Shown one piece after another: positions 1 through 64,000 of a DNA stretch of 64,000 nt. A model generated the notes under the pieces. It did not search any database, was not told where the DNA came from, and saw only the letters and a program-made list of their open reading frames with translations. Position numbers and translations under genes: made by a program. Location of the stretch: the IMG/VR virus record IMGVR_UViG_2808606757_000001, positions 1,416 to 65,415 of that record; one strand, 5' to 3'. The stretch comes from a virus (Duplodnaviria > Caudoviricetes). Position 1 is the stretch's first letter, and each line of letters starts with the position of its first letter.

Positions 1-205
1 CGGGTTACCCGCCGAGGGGTGTTTGCTGTGACTTTGTACCTGGACGTGCAGTTCGGACGTGGTGAAAAGACAGCCTGGACGCCCCCCCCCCGCAGTTTTA
101 AGGGTGTCGCTAACTCGGGGGGGTTGGCTACTGAGTAACGGGTTCCTAAGCGGCATTTCCGCAGGTCAAATCACACAACTGTAATTTGCTGGGTCGCAAA
201 TTATT

Positions 206-227
206 TGTCGGCGCAACCATCTACCCT
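206..227 (+). promoter_or_regulatory. PafBC-type (RecA-independent DNA damage) promoter
   Basis: TGTCGG (206-211) + 10 nt + TACCCT (222-227) is an exact match to the TGTCGG-N10-TANNNT consensus; upstream of the RBS and ATG at 269. Confidence 0.75.
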
Positions 228-268
228 CCTCTCACAGCAGTTGTGCAGGACCCAGAGGGGAAAGCTTG

Positions 269-463
269 ATGAGCGACGACGATCTAAGTGCCACACTCGA
301 TTTGATCCATGCGGAGATGGACGTGCTGCCTCCGACCGAGTGGTCATTGATCGAAGCCCGTCGCGTTCTTGCCACGCTTACCGGACTTCGCCGGGCGCGG
401 AATCCGGTCTTGAATCTGGGATGCGTCTCGTCGCCGCGACTTCGCCGACGGCTGGGCGCGTGA
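269..463 (+). CDS. Small protein, candidate damage-inducible anti-repressor
   Basis: ORF MSDDDLSATLDLIHAEMD...; purine-rich RBS (GAGGGGAAAG); own promoter; overlaps the repressor 3' end on the opposite strand. Confidence 0.55.
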   Translation: MSDDDLSATLDLIHAEMDVLPPTEWSLIEARRVLATLTGLRRARNPVLNLGCVSSPRLRRRLGA

Positions 464-1258
464 GCCTGGTGGATGGTGGTCTCCGGCCGGCCTGGCCGAT
501 TCTTCGTCAGCAACCTCGCCGGCGCCGGCCTCCTGGTCTTGCTGGGTTTCCGGCGATGCATCCGATTGCGGCGCATTCTCCACGGTGTTGTCGGCATGTT
601 GTGTTCCTTTCTGGAAGTGCTGCATGGCGGCGACGGCGTCATACAGTTCGTTGAGTTGTGAGCGCGCGACGCGTGATGCGTTGCGCTCGTCGGCAAGTTC
701 GGATGCGTGGTCGCGATACCAGTTGGCGACCCGGAACAGAGGCGCTACCGATTCGTAGACCATCTCCTCGAAGGTTTCACGGTGATCTTCGGGAACGAAG
801 GGGTCCAGCCAATCGACGAGCTCACCGGTCGTCCGGAGCGCGGTGGCGACATTCCCTGCTAGCTCGCTGATCCGGTTCCACTCACGTTGCGCGCGTTCCC
901 AATCCCGTTGGTGGTACTGGGTGAACACTCGGAGCAGCTCTACGACGGCGCGGCGTTCGGACGGGCCGAGGTTGTCGACTCCGGGCGGCAGGACGCTGGC
1001 AAATGGTGCACGGGGCGCGTCCTGGCCGGCCGCGTCGAATGCCTTGTCCTCGGGGACGTTGGCCAGCCAGGCGATCGCCCTGATCGTGGTTGCGGTCGGG
1101 TCCCCGTTGTACGTGCCGCTGCGGATCCGGTTGAGCGTCGTGTGTGACACGTCGTAGCCGGCCGCGGCTGCGATGTCCGCGAGGCGTCGTCCGGACGCCC
1201 CGTCGTGCTTGGCGCTCGCCAGCTCTATGAGCTCGGGAAGCGTGTGTTTCTCGGTCAC
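344..1258 (-). CDS. Immunity repressor (N-terminal XRE-like HTH)
   Basis: SGRRLADIAAAAGYDVSHTTLNRIRSG HTH; divergent from a cro-like gene; probable GTG start at 1258; no S24 peptidase motif seen. Confidence 0.75.
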   Translation of the reverse strand: MTEKHTLPELIELASAKHDGASGRRLADIAAAAGYDVSHTTLNRIRSGTYNGDPTATTIRAIAWLANVPEDKAFDAAGQDAPRAPFASVLPPGVDNLGPSERRAVVELLRVFTQYHQRDWERAQREWNRISELAGNVATALRTTGELVDWLDPFVPEDHRETFEEMVYESVAPLFRVANWYRDHASELADERNASRVARSQLNELYDAVAAMQHFQKGTQHADNTVENAPQSDASPETQQDQEAGAGEVADEESARPAGDHHPPGSRAQPSAKSRRRDASQIQDRIPRPAKSGKRGKNATGFDQ

Positions 1259-1312
1259 GCCAGAAATGATGATCCCCAATCGTCCGGTCGTGCCAGATTG
1301 ATGCACGAATTT

Positions 1313-1410
1313 GGCGACAAGTGAAGCACGCTCCACGCGGCGACAACCAGGGTTTGTGCCACTTGTCATCTTGACGAGTAGATGGCAGCTGGTGCATGAT
1401 CCACTTGTCA
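1313..1410. promoter_or_regulatory. Divergent immunity control region with operator repeats
   Basis: CCACTTGTCA at 1359 and 1401, inverse CGACAAGTG at 1315; rightward TTGACG(1371)-N18-CATGAT(1395). Confidence 0.65.
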
Positions 1411-1428
1411 ACCCGAAGATTGGAGCGC

Positions 1429-1746
1429 ATGATGGCTAAATCACACCGGCGTAAGCCACCTCAGCGAAGAAAGGACGTGTGGATGCACGTCATCGACGGC
1501 AACCGGATTCGACGGTGGCGCAAGCAACGTCACTACTCGCAACGGGAGCTCGCGTTCCTCGTTCGCCGCACCCAGTCCACGATCTACTTGATCGAAACGG
1601 GCAAACTTCGAGACATCACCGAAGACCTGGCGCTGGCGTTGGCGGCCCGGCTCGACGTGCCGTGGGAGGACCTCTTCGAGGCCCGTGAGGATTCTTTGCC
1701 GTCCGATGTGACAACTGGTGCATGTGCCACCAGTCAATCCGCCTGA
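1429..1746 (+). CDS. Cro-like XRE HTH regulator
   Basis: IRRWRKQRHYSQRELAFLVRRTQSTIYLIETG is a classic XRE HTH; divergent from the repressor; start uncertain. Confidence 0.85.
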   Translation: MMAKSHRRKPPQRRKDVWMHVIDGNRIRRWRKQRHYSQRELAFLVRRTQSTIYLIETGKLRDITEDLALALAARLDVPWEDLFEAREDSLPSDVTTGACATSQSA

Positions 1747-1765
1747 CCCGCTGCGGCGGTGACAA

Positions 1766-1987
1766 ATGAGAGGGGTCGATGTGTCAGATTCAGCACCAGA
1801 CAGCAGGCCGAGGCCGACGCTGCTTACCGTGCCGGAGACCGCCAAGGCCATGCGGTGCGGGAAGACGACGGTCTACTCGCTGCTTAAGCAGGGCGAGCTG
1901 CGGTCGGTGAAGGTGGCGGGCCGTCGGTTCGTCACCGCCGCCGAGGTGGAGCGGTTCATCGCCGAGCACGAGCGGGTGTCGGCATGA
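1766..1987 (+). CDS. Excisionase-like (Xis/MerR-type HTH) protein
   Basis: LLTVPETAKAMRCGKTTVYSLLKQGELRSVKVAGRRFV. Confidence 0.8.
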   Translation: MRGVDVSDSAPDSRPRPTLLTVPETAKAMRCGKTTVYSLLKQGELRSVKVAGRRFVTAAEVERFIAEHERVSA

Positions 1988-2787
1988 GCACCCGCATCCC
2001 CGACCCGGGTGGAGCGTCGGGCACCTTCGCCGCCCTCGAGAAGACCCGTCCGGCCGACGAGCCGATCGAGTTCAAGTTCGGTGAGCGCGTCTTGCCCATC
2101 CTGGTGTGGCTGATCGACGGTGAGCCTTGGTTCGCCGCGAGCGTGGTCGCCGCCGAGTTGGGCTACCGGATGGCCTCGGACATGACGCGCCGACTGGACG
2201 CCGACGAGAAGGGTACGCGTTCAGTGCGTACCCCTGGCGGTGTCCAGAACATCACCATCATCAGCGAGTCGGGGCTGTACACCGCGATCCTCGGCAGCCG
2301 GATCCCCGGCGCTGTGGAGTTCAAGCGGTGGGTCACCCACGAGGTGTTGCCCGCGCTCCGCCGCACCGGCACCTATTCCACGACTCCGGCGCTGACCGAA
2401 GACGAGATTGTGCACCAGGCGCTCGCCATCACCGCGCGCCGCGTCGAACAGCTGGCCGAGCAAGTCGCGGAGCTGACCCCGAAGGCTGAGTTCTACGACG
2501 AGCTGATGGAGGCCGACGGAACCTACTCGCTGTTGGCCACGGCGAAGATGATCGGCTGGGGCCGCAACGTGATGATGCGGGAGCTGCGCCGCGCCGGGGT
2601 GTTACAGGGCAACAACCTTCCGTACCAGCGGTATTCGCATCACTTCAAGATCGTGGCGGGCACGTACACCAACGGCAAGACCGGCGAGACGGTGCCGACG
2701 GCGACCACCTACGTGCGGCCGTCGGGCGTGGCGTTCCTGCGCAAGAAGCTGGCCCGCGCTCTGGAGCTGGCGGAGGTGGACGCCTGA
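1984..2787 (+). CDS. Antirepressor (Bro-N + ANT/KilA-C)
   Basis: GEPWFAASVVAAELGY...IISESGLY...FKRWVTHEVLPALRRTGTY; C-terminal PKAEFYDELMEADGT. Confidence 0.9.
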   Translation: MSTRIPDPGGASGTFAALEKTRPADEPIEFKFGERVLPILVWLIDGEPWFAASVVAAELGYRMASDMTRRLDADEKGTRSVRTPGGVQNITIISESGLYTAILGSRIPGAVEFKRWVTHEVLPALRRTGTYSTTPALTEDEIVHQALAITARRVEQLAEQVAELTPKAEFYDELMEADGTYSLLATAKMIGWGRNVMMRELRRAGVLQGNNLPYQRYSHHFKIVAGTYTNGKTGETVPTATTYVRPSGVAFLRKKLARALELAEVDA

Positions 2788-25399: not shown

Positions 25400-25508
25400 G
25401 TCGTCGCTACCGGTTTGCTGGCGACTCGTGACAAATGGTGCTTGCACCACGCTCCGGATCGGTTACATTGGCGGGCGTGACGTTGCTCAGCATCGAGGAC
25501 CCCAGGGC

Positions 25509-26093
25509 TTGACCGGCCCGCAGAGGTGGGAACCGGACGCGCAGATGGTCGCGGCCGTCCTGTCGATGCCGAAAGCGTCCCGCAAGATGACCGAGCTGTC
25601 CGACGCGGACCGTTCCTGGCTCGTCGCCGGCCTGACGCTGGCCGGGGTGACAGCCCAAGACATCGCCGACCGGTTGTCGTGCTCGCTGCGGCTCGTGCGC
25701 GCGATCCGGGCCGAGGACATGACACAGATGGCGGTCGTGGCGCAGGACGAAACCCGCAGGCTCGGTGACGAACTGCGGAGCGAGCGTTGCGATCACTCAG
25801 TGACGCGCCGCGAGTTGGCGGAGTCGCGACGGGAGGCCGACAGGCTGAGGCGGCAGCTCGACCAGGTCGTCACTAAGATGGCCAACGAGGAGCCGGTCGC
25901 GAAGTGCTATCGGGGCCATGCGCTTGTCGGTGACAACGTGTACCGTCACAGCGGCCGCGACTACTGCCGGCAGTGCAACCGGGAGAACACCCTCGCGTAT
26001 CGCGAGCGCAAGCGTAAACGCGATGAACTGCAGCGTCATTCGATCGGTATGTCGCCAACAGTGCACACCGAGTCCGTAGCGTCCGCCTCATGA
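25509..26093 (+). CDS. HTH + coiled-coil + Cys/His Zn-finger protein; candidate late regulator
   Basis: GVTAQDIADRLSCSLRLVRAIR HTH; CYRGH...CRQC; start uncertain (TTG at 25509 proposed). Confidence 0.65.
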   Translation: MTGPQRWEPDAQMVAAVLSMPKASRKMTELSDADRSWLVAGLTLAGVTAQDIADRLSCSLRLVRAIRAEDMTQMAVVAQDETRRLGDELRSERCDHSVTRRELAESRREADRLRRQLDQVVTKMANEEPVAKCYRGHALVGDNVYRHSGRDYCRQCNRENTLAYRERKRKRDELQRHSIGMSPTVHTESVASAS

Positions 26094-63805: not shown

Positions 63806-63937
63806 CGTGACACCGCCCGAGTTGTCACGGAGTTGTCACAACCTGGCGCGAACAACCCCGAACAATGGCGACCAACCGCGAACTGTTTGCGCAGGTCAGT
63901 CGGTCAACGGCGAACAATCGCGAACACGTGCGAATCC
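63806..63937. repeat. att arm: integrase arm-type and directionality-factor repeats
   Basis: GAGTTGTCAC at 63819 and 63830; CGAACAA-like units at 63849, 63859, 63869, 63879 and 63911, 63921, 63931. Confidence 0.75.
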
Positions 63938-63942
63938 CGTTC

Positions 63943-64000
63943 AGCGGACTGTAAATCCGTCGGCTTACGCCTACACAGGTTCGAATCCTGTACCTGCCAC
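63943..64000 (+). tRNA. 3' portion of tRNA-Tyr(GTA), att common core (attR-like)
   Basis: Anticodon arm GCGGA-CTGTAAA-TCCGT, long variable arm, T-arm GGTTCGAATCC, acceptor 3' strand; 5' half absent. Confidence 0.9.

What the first reader, a model, noticed from the sequence alone, without database searches (positions are those of the whole stretch)
206..463. PafBC-type damage promoter drives a small gene into the repressor: candidate RecA/LexA-independent induction switch
Seen: TGTCGG-N10-TACCCT at 206-227, then an RBS and a 64-aa ORF whose last 120 bp overlap the 3' end of the leftward repressor, with no obvious terminator. The repressor shows an HTH and a low-complexity tail, and I see no S24 autoprotease motif. 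Established: PafBC activates mycobacterial DNA-damage genes at TGTCGG-N10-TANNNT promoters independently of LexA/RecA. Inference: the prophage uses host PafBC to make an anti-repressor peptide and/or antisense transcription that shuts off immunity.
Basis: partly seen in the sequence, partly recalled or inferred. Interest (0 to 1): 0.9.

Follow-up and report, generated by a model that had tools for sequence, protein, structure and literature searches.

The report
Damage-switched small gene facing phage repressor
A temperate mycobacterial phage carries a conserved, mostly unannotated 64-residue gene that runs head-on into the end of its repressor gene and sits behind the promoter type its host uses to switch on DNA repair, which suggests an untested, RecA-independent way for such phages to wake up after DNA damage.

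Summary
TGTCGG-N10-TACCCT lies at 206-227 and fits the published PafBC consensus tGTCgg(N10)tA(N3)T. A GAGGGG ribosome site and a 64-codon ORF (269-463) follow. The ORF's last 120 nt overlap the 3' end of a leftward XRE-type repressor that has no S24 domain.

The ORF is a real gene. tblastn finds it in 236 Mycobacterium phage records, always convergent with the repressor. Its frame is under purifying selection (pN/pS 0.36), while the repressor frame on the other strand is not (about 0.9).

The promoter motif is kept in all 10 distinct loci of the window's subgroup. All 9 variable positions of the 22-mer fall on N positions. These loci carry unrelated repressor DNA-binding domains and different integrases. 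In 5 of 5 relatives' whole records it is the only such site.

The ORF also occurs without the motif in 77 of 77 Tweety-like loci and in one metagenome locus.

PafBC dependence, damage induction and any anti-repressor action are inferred; I had no expression or binding data. I found no paper describing this. Earlier notes of this scan report PafBC-type promoters on other prophages, there in front of ImmA-like proteases. Verdict: new variant of host-damage-regulator-controlled antirepression, and testable in M. smegmatis.

The parts
180..196 (+). Conserved block TGTAATTTGCTGGGTCG just upstream of the promoter motif; role unknown (a second regulator site, or part of a leftward int promoter)
   Evidence: Kept with one or two changes in 10 of 10 motif-bearing loci in the alignment. 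Sequence read.
206..227 (+). PafBC-type (RecA-NDp) promoter motif: -26 element TGTCGG (206-211), 10-nt spacer, -10 TACCCT (222-227); no -35
   Evidence: Consensus tGTCgg(N10)tA(N3)T from PMC8635444. Conserved in 10 of 10 distinct subgroup loci, with all 9 variable positions on N positions. Unique site in 5 of 5 relatives' whole records. The sigma-70 scan finds no -35/-10 promoter here.
234..268 (+). Predicted leader: start site inferred near A234 (7 nt after the -10), with Shine-Dalgarno GAGGGG at 255-260
   Evidence: Inferred from spacing in the sequence. A (G)AGGGG run is kept upstream of the start in the alignment. No start-site data exist.
269..463 (+). Small gene: 64 aa, predicted helix hairpin (3-19, 27-44) plus a basic C-terminal tail with an invariant Cys and the motif P-R-L-x-R-R
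   Evidence: tblastn finds it in 236 phage records. pN/pS is 0.36 in this frame against 0.90 antisense. Invariant columns are listed. AlphaFold2 mean pLDDT is 74.5. No Pfam, PHROG, PDB-fold or Atlas match.
344..463 (.). 120-nt antiparallel, codon-in-register overlap of the small gene with the last 39 codons and stop of the repressor
   Evidence: the repressor stop lies inside the small ORF in 13 of 13 loci examined, with an overlap of 111-135 nt. The repressor frame here has pN/pS 0.87-1.67.
344..1258 (-). Immunity repressor, 304 aa, a three-part mosaic. The N-terminal HTH (residues 1-85) is 55% identical to the Gordonia phage BaxterFox repressor. The middle part is private. The C-terminal ~110 aa are shared with other cassette-bearing phages and mostly predicted disordered.
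   Evidence: No S24 domain.
484..498 (+). Weak terminator-like hairpin after the small gene; not conserved
   Evidence: Absent at the aligned place in ThulaThula and LilSpotty, by eye.
1316..1429 (.). Repressor/cro intergenic region with operator-like repeats CCACTTGTCA (1359, 1401; inverted copy at 1316-1335); these are absent from the 150-270 region
1396..2787 (+). Early rightward genes on the same strand as the small gene: cro-like HTH (1396-1746), excisionase-like HTH_17 (1766-1987), Bro-N/KilAC antirepressor (1984-2787)

Best explanation
Positions 206-227 are a PafBC-type (RecA-NDp) promoter: a -26 element TGTCGG, ten bases, a -10 TACCCT, and no -35. In a lysogen it should stay silent until single-stranded DNA activates the host regulator PafBC.

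RNA polymerase would then start near 234. It would transcribe a 35-nt leader with a GAGGGG ribosome site and a 64-codon gene (269-463) for a two-helix protein with a basic tail. It would keep going head-on into the immunity repressor gene, whose last 39 codons and stop are written on the opposite strand of the small gene.

I propose that this roughly 280-bp portable cassette lowers immunity after DNA damage without RecA or LexA. Three routes are possible. (a) The small protein acts as a non-proteolytic antirepressor. (b) Convergent transcription or antisense pairing works against the repressor mRNA. (c) The transcript reads through into cro-xis-ant, which lie on the same strand.

Shown here: the motif, the gene, the overlap, their conservation and their portability. 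Inferred: PafBC dependence, damage induction, and every effect on the repressor.
For: Motif. It fits the published 22-nt in vivo consensus exactly (sequence).

Conservation. It is present 60-66 nt before the ORF start in all 10 distinct loci of the subgroup: window, L008, L090, Farewell, Sparky, L010, ThulaThula, LilSpotty, L013 and the M. aquaticum prophage L088. All 9 variable positions of the 22-mer fall on the 13 N positions and none on the 9 defining positions. By my hand count that is C(13,9)/C(22,9) = 0.0014, a rough figure because the loci are related.

Background rate. There is exactly one strict match in each of 5 of 5 relatives' whole records (44.8-65.3 kb), always this site, with 0 matches to the reversed-pattern control. 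A host genome (M. aquaticum, 7.9 Mb) has 50 matches against 18 for the control, so such sites are rare.

Independence from phage specificity. The window repressor shares only its C-terminal 55-112 aa with the other cassette-bearing repressors; the DNA-binding parts give no BLASTP match. Integrases are 79% identical (ThulaThula) or only about 25% (Farewell, M. aquaticum). The immunity operators CCACTTGTCA are not repeated near the motif. Farewell and Sparky share only window 173-453 with this phage, at 84% identity. The cassette therefore moves on its own.

Real gene. 236 records match by tblastn. Variable sites at codon positions 1/2/3 number 31/15/50 of 62 codons. pN/pS is 0.36 in the ORF frame against 0.90 antisense.

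Need for such a route. 0 of 10 repressors has an S24 domain. The record has no S24 or M78 protease. There is no LexA-box-like site within 12 kb of the motif.

Precedent. Activator-driven small ORFs of 57-61 codons that inactivate cI without cleaving it are known from vibriophages (PMC10432266, passages).
Against: I found no expression, start-site or binding data.

The ORF family occurs at the same place without the motif in 77 of 77 Tweety-like loci and in the metagenome locus L089. The gene's function is therefore not tied to PafBC.

The overlapped repressor tail evolves nearly neutrally in its own frame (pN/pS 0.87-1.67) and is predicted disordered. That weakens the idea that the peptide grips this tail.

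Nearly the same peptide (81-91% identical) sits with unrelated DNA-binding domains. A specific antirepressor would be expected to co-vary with its target.

The peptide has no sequence or fold similarity to known antirepressors.

A weak hairpin at 484-498, or Rho acting on untranslated antisense RNA, could stop the transcript early.

The phage already has a Bro-N/KilAC antirepressor gene.

The 10 loci are related, so the conservation counts are not independent.
Confidence: 0.5

Rival explanations
1. The promoter is PafBC-dependent, but the small protein is a damage- or infection-induced accessory function: defence against other phages, a host-modulating factor, or a division or repair modulator. 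Its position against the repressor gene would then be only inherited synteny.
For: The cassette behaves like a small mobile unit with its own promoter (only window 173-453 is shared with Farewell and Sparky). The region between int and the repressor holds lysogen-expressed defence genes in related phages; gp45 of NormanBulbieJr is one example (preprint 10.64898/2025.12.12.693979, passages). The repressor tail in the overlap is not constrained. An earlier scan note reports a PafBC-type promoter on cargo genes of a mycobacterial satellite (unchecked).
Against: In 13 of 13 loci examined the repressor ends inside the ORF with a 111-135 nt overlap, despite unrelated repressor DNA-binding parts. The arrangement survives down to 44-48% peptide identity. 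Transcription from this promoter must collide with repressor transcription, whatever the protein does.
Confidence: 0.2
2. The bipartite sequence is not used by PafBC. It is an ordinary SigA -10 promoter, with a conserved upstream site for some other regulator. The small gene would be expressed as in the Tweety-like phages, for example as an early lytic or lysogeny-establishment gene.
For: Most family members (77 of 77 Tweety-like loci and L089) drive the same gene without the motif. The motif sits inside a generally well-conserved 100-nt region that holds another conserved block at 180-196. PafBC binding is not testable here.
Against: The match to the consensus is exact in both sequence and spacing. 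Variation is confined to N positions. TGTCGG lies 10 nt from the -10, too close to act as a -35. The motif is independent of repressor and integrase type. It is the only such site in each of 5 relatives' records.
Confidence: 0.2
3. The promoter matters mainly as an upstream, repressor-blind promoter for the early lytic operon. After damage, transcripts read through the antisense repressor gene into cro, xis and the Bro-N/KilAC antirepressor. The small protein would be secondary.
For: cro-like, xis and ant lie on the same strand, 0.9-1.5 kb downstream. Only one weak, non-conserved terminator-like site lies in between. The same gene order is seen in ThulaThula, LilSpotty, Farewell, Tweety and the M. 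aquaticum prophage.
Against: About 900 nt of untranslated antisense RNA would be a good target for Rho (general knowledge, not tested here). Purifying selection on the ORF shows that the protein itself matters. There are no RNA data.
Confidence: 0.1
4. Chance motif and a spurious ORF.
For: One of 100 shuffles of the window gave 2 strict matches. Antisense frames in G+C-rich genes often stay open.
Against: Protein-level conservation in 236 records. pN/pS 0.36 in the ORF frame against 0.90 antisense. The motif is conserved in 10 of 10 loci with variation only at N positions.
Confidence: 0.02

Closest known systems
PafBC-dependent (RecA-NDp, recA P1-type) promoters of the mycobacterial DNA-damage regulon
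   Same: The same 22-nt architecture tGTCgg(N10)tA(N3)T: a -26 element plus a canonical -10 and no -35 (PMC8635444, passages; PMC6789036, passages).
   Different: It lies on a phage, points into the immunity repressor gene and drives a 64-aa gene of unknown family. PafBC binding and damage induction are not shown. The spacer starts with (C/A/G)G, whereas many host sites start with TG (one search list).
TF-smORF induction modules of vibriophages and related phages (VqmA_Phi-Qtip of VP882; TF72-smORF72)
   Same: An activator switches on a tiny gene of 57-61 codons with no recognisable domain. The small protein inactivates the phage repressor without cleaving it (PMC10432266, passages).
   Different: There the activator is phage-encoded, the pathway is SOS-independent and the smORF is divergent from its TF. 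Here the presumed activator is the host's damage sensor, the small gene overlaps the repressor gene antisense, and antirepressor activity is untested. There is no sequence similarity.
LexA-controlled antirepressors of phages with non-cleavable repressors (Tum of coliphage 186; Gifsy-type antirepressors of Salmonella).
   Same: The host's DNA-damage regulator controls a small phage gene, in place of cleavage of the repressor.
   Different: Those work by relief of LexA repression, not by activation through a WYL-type activator. The proteins are unrelated. Those genes do not overlap the repressor gene.
Antisense or convergent transcription in phage switches (lambda OOP RNA against cII, P22 sar, 186 pR/pL interference).
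   Same: A convergent transcript overlaps the 3' part of a lysogeny-control gene.
   Different: Here the convergent transcript also encodes a conserved protein. The predicted RNA is not unusually structured (z = +1.85) and matches no Rfam family.
PafBC-type promoters in front of ImmA-like protease operons in other actinobacterial prophages
   Same: The same idea: a prophage borrows the host's PafBC promoter type to sense DNA damage.
   Different: The payload differs. This record has no M78/ImmA-like protease. The gene behind the promoter is a 64-aa protein overprinted on the repressor's tail.

Membership tests
PafBC-dependent (RecA-NDp) promoter | -26 element tGTCgg | tested here: met
   TGTCGG at 206-211, preceded by T. 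Invariant in 10 of 10 related loci. Consensus from PMC8635444.
PafBC-dependent (RecA-NDp) promoter | Exactly 10 nt between the -26 element and a -10 of the form tA(N3)T | tested here: met
   The spacer is 212-221 and TACCCT is 222-227. The spacing is identical in 10 of 10 loci.
PafBC-dependent (RecA-NDp) promoter | No -35 element | tested here: met
   The sigma-70-type scan reports no promoter at 190-230. Read by eye, the bases 17 nt upstream of the -10 are A/T-rich and unlike TTGACA.
PafBC-dependent (RecA-NDp) promoter | PafBC occupancy, and pafBC-dependent induction by DNA damage | not testable with these tools
   No RNA run holds this DNA. No ChIP data exist for a lysogen. The supplements of the PafBC papers were closed.
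LexA/CI-type self-cleaving repressor (Peptidase S24) | C-terminal S24 domain with an Ala-Gly cleavage site and a Ser-Lys dyad | tested here: not met
   No S24 hit in the window repressor, in 9 relatives' repressors, or in six-frame search of the whole record.
ImmR/ImmA-type induction module | M78/COG2856 zinc protease gene next to the repressor | tested here: not met
   No Peptidase_M78 match in the 65,415-bp record.
Ant/KilAC or Bro-N antirepressors | Pfam ANT (PF03374) or Bro-N (PF02498) domain in the small protein | tested here: not met
   The 64-aa protein has 0 Pfam families at E <= 0.1. Those domains are in the separate gene at 1984-2787.
TF-smORF antirepressor modules (Silpe et al. 2023) | The small protein inactivates the cognate repressor; its gene is switched on by a dedicated activator | not testable with these tools
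Only the logic and the gene size are alike.
Integration-dependent immunity (attP inside the repressor gene). The definition is recalled, not looked up. | The attP core lies within the 3' end of the repressor gene, so that integration truncates the repressor | tested here: not met
   The record ends carry a 77-bp direct repeat with a tRNA T-arm-like sequence beside the 3' end of int. That is about 1.6 kb from the repressor's stop. The region 61-582 is colinear with free phage genomes.

The most novel reading that the evidence does not exclude
The cassette is a portable 'damage-induction plug-in'. A host-PafBC-activated promoter plus a 64-aa protein gene is overprinted antisense on a disordered repressor tail. 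Recombination can attach it to any XRE-type repressor DNA-binding domain, making that repressor answer to DNA damage without RecA, LexA or proteolysis. The small protein would neutralise the repressor through the shared C-terminal segment while the convergent transcript silences repressor synthesis. The Tweety-like (Cluster F, by recall) phages would use the same effector under a different trigger.
Probability: 0.2. Interest if true: 0.85.

Novelty: new variant of a known kind. Interest (0 to 1): 0.7.

Why it matters
How temperate mycobacteriophages with repressors that cannot self-cleave sense DNA damage is an open question. The main damage regulator of their hosts is the activator PafBC, not LexA.

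This cassette gives a concrete and cheap test. Four of the carriers (ThulaThula, Farewell, Sparky, LilSpotty) were isolated on M. smegmatis mc2 155. A pafBC deletion mutant of M. smegmatis has been published (PMC5656591, abstract and passages).

The finding also flags a conserved gene that is missing from most annotations of about 240 phage genomes. The 5.8-billion-protein collection holds one called protein, and 13 representatives match among 1.84 billion. In some Tweety-like genomes a probably spurious ORF is annotated on the opposite strand instead.

If the peptide turns out to be a general antirepressor, it would be useful for controlled induction of mycobacterial prophages and for understanding lysogen stability in phage therapy candidates.

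Tried and rejected
attP or integrase arm site as the reason for conservation: rejected. The att repeat is at the record ends. Integrases differ among carriers.

Immunity operator: rejected. CCACTTGTCA repeats are confined to 1316-1429. Carriers have unrelated DNA-binding domains.

LexA box: 7 one-mismatch hits against 4.19 expected, none before 12216.

Known RNA family or structured sRNA: one sub-threshold CRISPR-DR hit. The fold is no better than shuffles (z = +1.85).

Fold search of the peptide model: 0 PDB matches at E <= 0.001. Atlas: no usable hit. Pfam and PHROGs: none.

An operator-like GCATCCGGTTGC upstream of the ORF in Tweety looked like the rep-cro repeats. It is also present in phages that lack those repeats, so I dropped it.

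In the Tweety-like upstream consensus, TGTCGA lies 17 nt, not 10 nt, from a TAGCGT. That is not a PafBC spacing.

A degenerate 14-base pattern scan of viral contigs was uninformative.

Genome contigs: the first scan found none. The second found one locus, in M. aquaticum. The metagenome scan found one locus.

No RNA holder was listed for window 1-1500.

The BGlluviae paper and the Fruitloop search gave nothing on this region.

Literature searches that found no description of a PafBC-driven mycobacteriophage switch or of this small gene: (listings and abstracts only). Supplements were closed, so PafBC ChIP site lists could not be seen.

Full report
WHERE THE WINDOW LIES. The window is bases 1416-65415 of a 65,415-bp IMG/VR virus record. 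The two ends of the record carry the same 77-bp sequence, which has a tRNA T-arm-like GGTTCGAATCC. ARAGORN calls no whole tRNA there. A tyrosine-integrase-like ORF (402 aa, leftward) lies at L004:116-1324, just left of the window. The record therefore looks like a prophage cut out at its att repeats: int sits next to attL, followed by the region of the finding. To the right come the repressor (344-1258, leftward), a cro-like HTH gene (1396-1746), an HTH_17 excisionase-like gene (1766-1987) and a Bro-N/KilAC antirepressor gene (1984-2787), the last three rightward.

THE OBSERVATION. TGTCGG lies at 206-211, followed by ten bases and TACCCT at 222-227. GAGGGG lies at 255-260. ATG is at 269 and the stop at 461-463, giving 64 codons. 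The repressor's stop codon is at 344-346, so the two genes overlap by 120 nt, codon-in-register on opposite strands.

The strict pattern has 2 matches in the window against 0.10 expected. The other match, at 25925, lies inside an ORF and has no counterpart in the closest relative's record.

The repressor has a weak HTH_3 hit, a PHROG 'transcriptional repressor' hit and no S24 domain. The one correction concerns the terminator: a weak terminator-like hairpin lies at 484-498. By eye it is not conserved in relatives.

THE MOTIF AGAINST THE LITERATURE. Passages of PMC8635444 give the in vivo PafBC consensus as the 22-nt motif tGTCgg(N10)tA(N3)T. They describe PafBC promoters as hybrids of a PafBC-specific -26 element and a canonical -10, without a -35. 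PMC6789036 names the motif RecA-NDp. The window's 22-mer fits exactly.

THE SMALL ORF IS A REAL GENE. tblastn of the 64-aa product finds 236 phage records, and each match covers at least 80% of the query. By first word of the organism name, 235 are Mycobacterium and 1 is Mycolicibacterium. Five records are 80-90% identical (ThulaThula twice, Farewell, Sparky twice), 2 are 60-80% (LilSpotty twice) and 229 are below 60% (Tweety-like; 'Cluster F' is my recall).

In every annotated example I opened, the match lies against or under the 3' end of the gene annotated as immunity repressor (ThulaThula gene 36 as a helix-turn-helix DNA binding protein), on the opposite strand, and is itself unannotated.

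Gene callers miss it. One protein turned up in the 5.8-billion-protein collection. A profile search of 1.84 billion representatives gave 13 hits, of which two long proteins matched several times over profile positions 30-61 and were not examined.

On a codon alignment of 8 unique subgroup sequences and 48 unique Tweety-like sequences, the variable sites in the subgroup fall 31/15/50 on codon positions 1/2/3 of 62 codons. pN/pS is 0.36 in the ORF frame against 0.90 in the in-register antisense (repressor) frame. For the Tweety-like set the figures are 0.42 against 0.63.

The repressor frame in the overlap gives 0.87, 0.73 and 1.67 in three groups, while the HTH part of the short repressors gives 0.12. 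The small gene therefore dictates the sequence in the overlap, and the repressor's last 39 residues ride on it.

AlphaFold2 predicts a helix hairpin (3-19, 27-44) plus a low-confidence basic tail (mean pLDDT 74.5). Nothing similar turned up in PDB, Pfam, PHROGs or the Atlas.

THE PROMOTER MOTIF IN RELATIVES. I examined 87 loci: the window, L001-L003 and L005-L087. Several are the same phage taken from two collections. Ten have TGTC(A/G)G-N(9-11)-TANNNT within 120 nt upstream of the ORF, and 77 do not. Those 77 are all Tweety-like.

Three further loci were found later. L088 (M. aquaticum RW6 prophage; L091 is the same contig) and L090 have the motif. L089 (metagenome) does not.

In the 10 distinct motif-bearing sequences, TGTCGG, TA and the final T never vary, and the spacing is always 10. 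All 9 variable positions of the 22-mer lie on N positions. By hand, C(13,9)/C(22,9) = 0.0014; the figure is rough because the loci are related.

In 5 of 5 relatives' whole records (44.8-65.3 kb) the strict pattern occurs exactly once, at this site, with no match to the reversed control. In the 7.9-Mb M. aquaticum genome it occurs 50 times against 18 for the control.

WHAT THE MOTIF IS NOT. It is not an immunity operator. BLASTP aligns the window repressor with the other carriers' repressors only over its C-terminal 55-112 residues. Its first 85 residues instead resemble the repressor of Gordonia phage BaxterFox, which has no cassette. The window's operator-like CCACTTGTCA repeats lie only between the repressor and cro.

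It is not an integrase site. The att repeat is 1.6 kb away, and carriers have integrases that are 79% identical or only about 25% identical.

What all carriers share is the cassette itself and the host genus, which points to a host factor. Farewell and Sparky share only window 173-453 with this phage, at 84% identity, so the promoter and ORF travel as a unit of about 280 bp.

THE OVERLAP IS A CONSTANT. In 13 of 13 loci examined (10 with the motif, 3 without), the repressor's stop codon lies inside the small ORF in register, with 111-135 nt of overlap. The repressors' C-terminal segments are homologous but loosely conserved (alignment A6). Beyond one helix they are mostly predicted to lack structure.

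None of the 10 repressors has an S24 domain. The record has no S24 or M78 protease.

HOW IT MOST LIKELY WORKS. This section is inference. After DNA damage, ssDNA-activated PafBC lets RNA polymerase start about 7 nt after the -10. The transcript encodes the small protein and runs head-on into the repressor gene.

Immunity could then be lowered in three ways. The protein could act as an antirepressor; the logic resembles the activator-driven small-ORF antirepressors of vibriophages (PMC10432266). Convergent transcription or antisense pairing could work against the repressor mRNA. Or the transcript could read through into cro-xis-ant on the same strand.

Purifying selection on the ORF says the protein matters. 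The near-neutral, disordered repressor tail and the unrelated DNA-binding domains argue against a tight, specific protein-protein fit, which keeps the RNA-level routes alive.

The main caveat is that most family members lack the motif. PafBC would then be one trigger among several for a common effector. In the Tweety-like phages the repressor is reported to be co-transcribed with a downstream secreted-protein gene in lysogens (preprint 10.64898/2025.12.12.693979, passages). The small gene there is therefore antisense to a lysogenic operon.

WHAT I COULD NOT DO. Supplements were closed.

NOVELTY. Four searches of the paper library (listings and abstracts) found no description of PafBC-controlled mycobacteriophage genes or of this small gene. 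Earlier AI notes of this scan report PafBC-type promoters on other prophages, in front of ImmA-like protease operons (unchecked here). The general idea has therefore been seen before in this scan on other DNA. This payload and its antisense nesting in the repressor gene have not.

VERDICT. I rate it a new variant of a known kind, namely host-damage-regulator-controlled antirepression or antisense control. Interest is 0.7, mainly because it is directly testable in M. smegmatis.

Noticed in passing
window 25925-25946 (+): A second strict TGTCGG-N10-TANNNT match (TGTCGGTGACAACGTGTACCGT). It lies inside ORF 25428-26093, 165 nt before the ATG at 26090. The closest relative's whole record has only one match, the one at the small gene, so this one is probably chance.
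   Followed up: partly
window 82-91: A run of 10 C between int and the cassette, within CCTGGACG-C10-GCAGTTTT. A C10-C11 run followed by GCTGTTTT is kept in ThulaThula and LilSpotty, and the 3' part of the run with the same flank is visible in L013 and L088. It may be a slippage-prone tract or part of a regulatory site.
   Followed up: no
window 180-196: The block TGTAATTTGCTGGGTCG is conserved in 10 of 10 motif-bearing loci, 10 nt upstream of the -26 element. Its reverse complement contains TACAGT-like -10 candidates, so it may belong to a leftward int promoter or be a second regulator site.
   Followed up: no
L004:1-77 and window 63924-64000; L004:125-148 and window 63819-63845: A 77-bp direct repeat at both record ends with a tRNA T-arm-like sequence, probably attL/attR. 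Paired TTGTCAC repeats lie just inside each end and look like integrase arm-type sites.
   Followed up: partly
L006:2439-2591 (-) (Awesomesauce gene 43); L007:2445-2591 (-) (Jabbawokkie gene 58): The small minus-strand 'hypothetical protein' annotated between the repressor and the next gene in some Tweety-like phages has pN/pS 1.36 in its own frame. The unannotated plus-strand ORF frame has 0.59 over the same stretch. The annotated ORF is probably spurious.
   Followed up: partly
window 344-1258 (-): The repressor is a three-part mosaic. Residues 1-85 are 55% identical to the repressor of Gordonia phage BaxterFox. The middle part is private (a phrog_6288 match). The last ~110 residues are shared with mycobacteriophage repressors that carry the cassette.
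   Followed up: partly
L017:2420-2470 and the same place in other Tweety-like loci: A block of about 40 nt upstream of the small ORF (GATCCGTTAGCGTCTACGCATCCGGTTGCGAGGGGTGACCGG) is almost invariant among 46 unique Tweety-like upstream sequences, more so than the ORF itself. It is probably their own promoter or regulatory site.
   Followed up: partly
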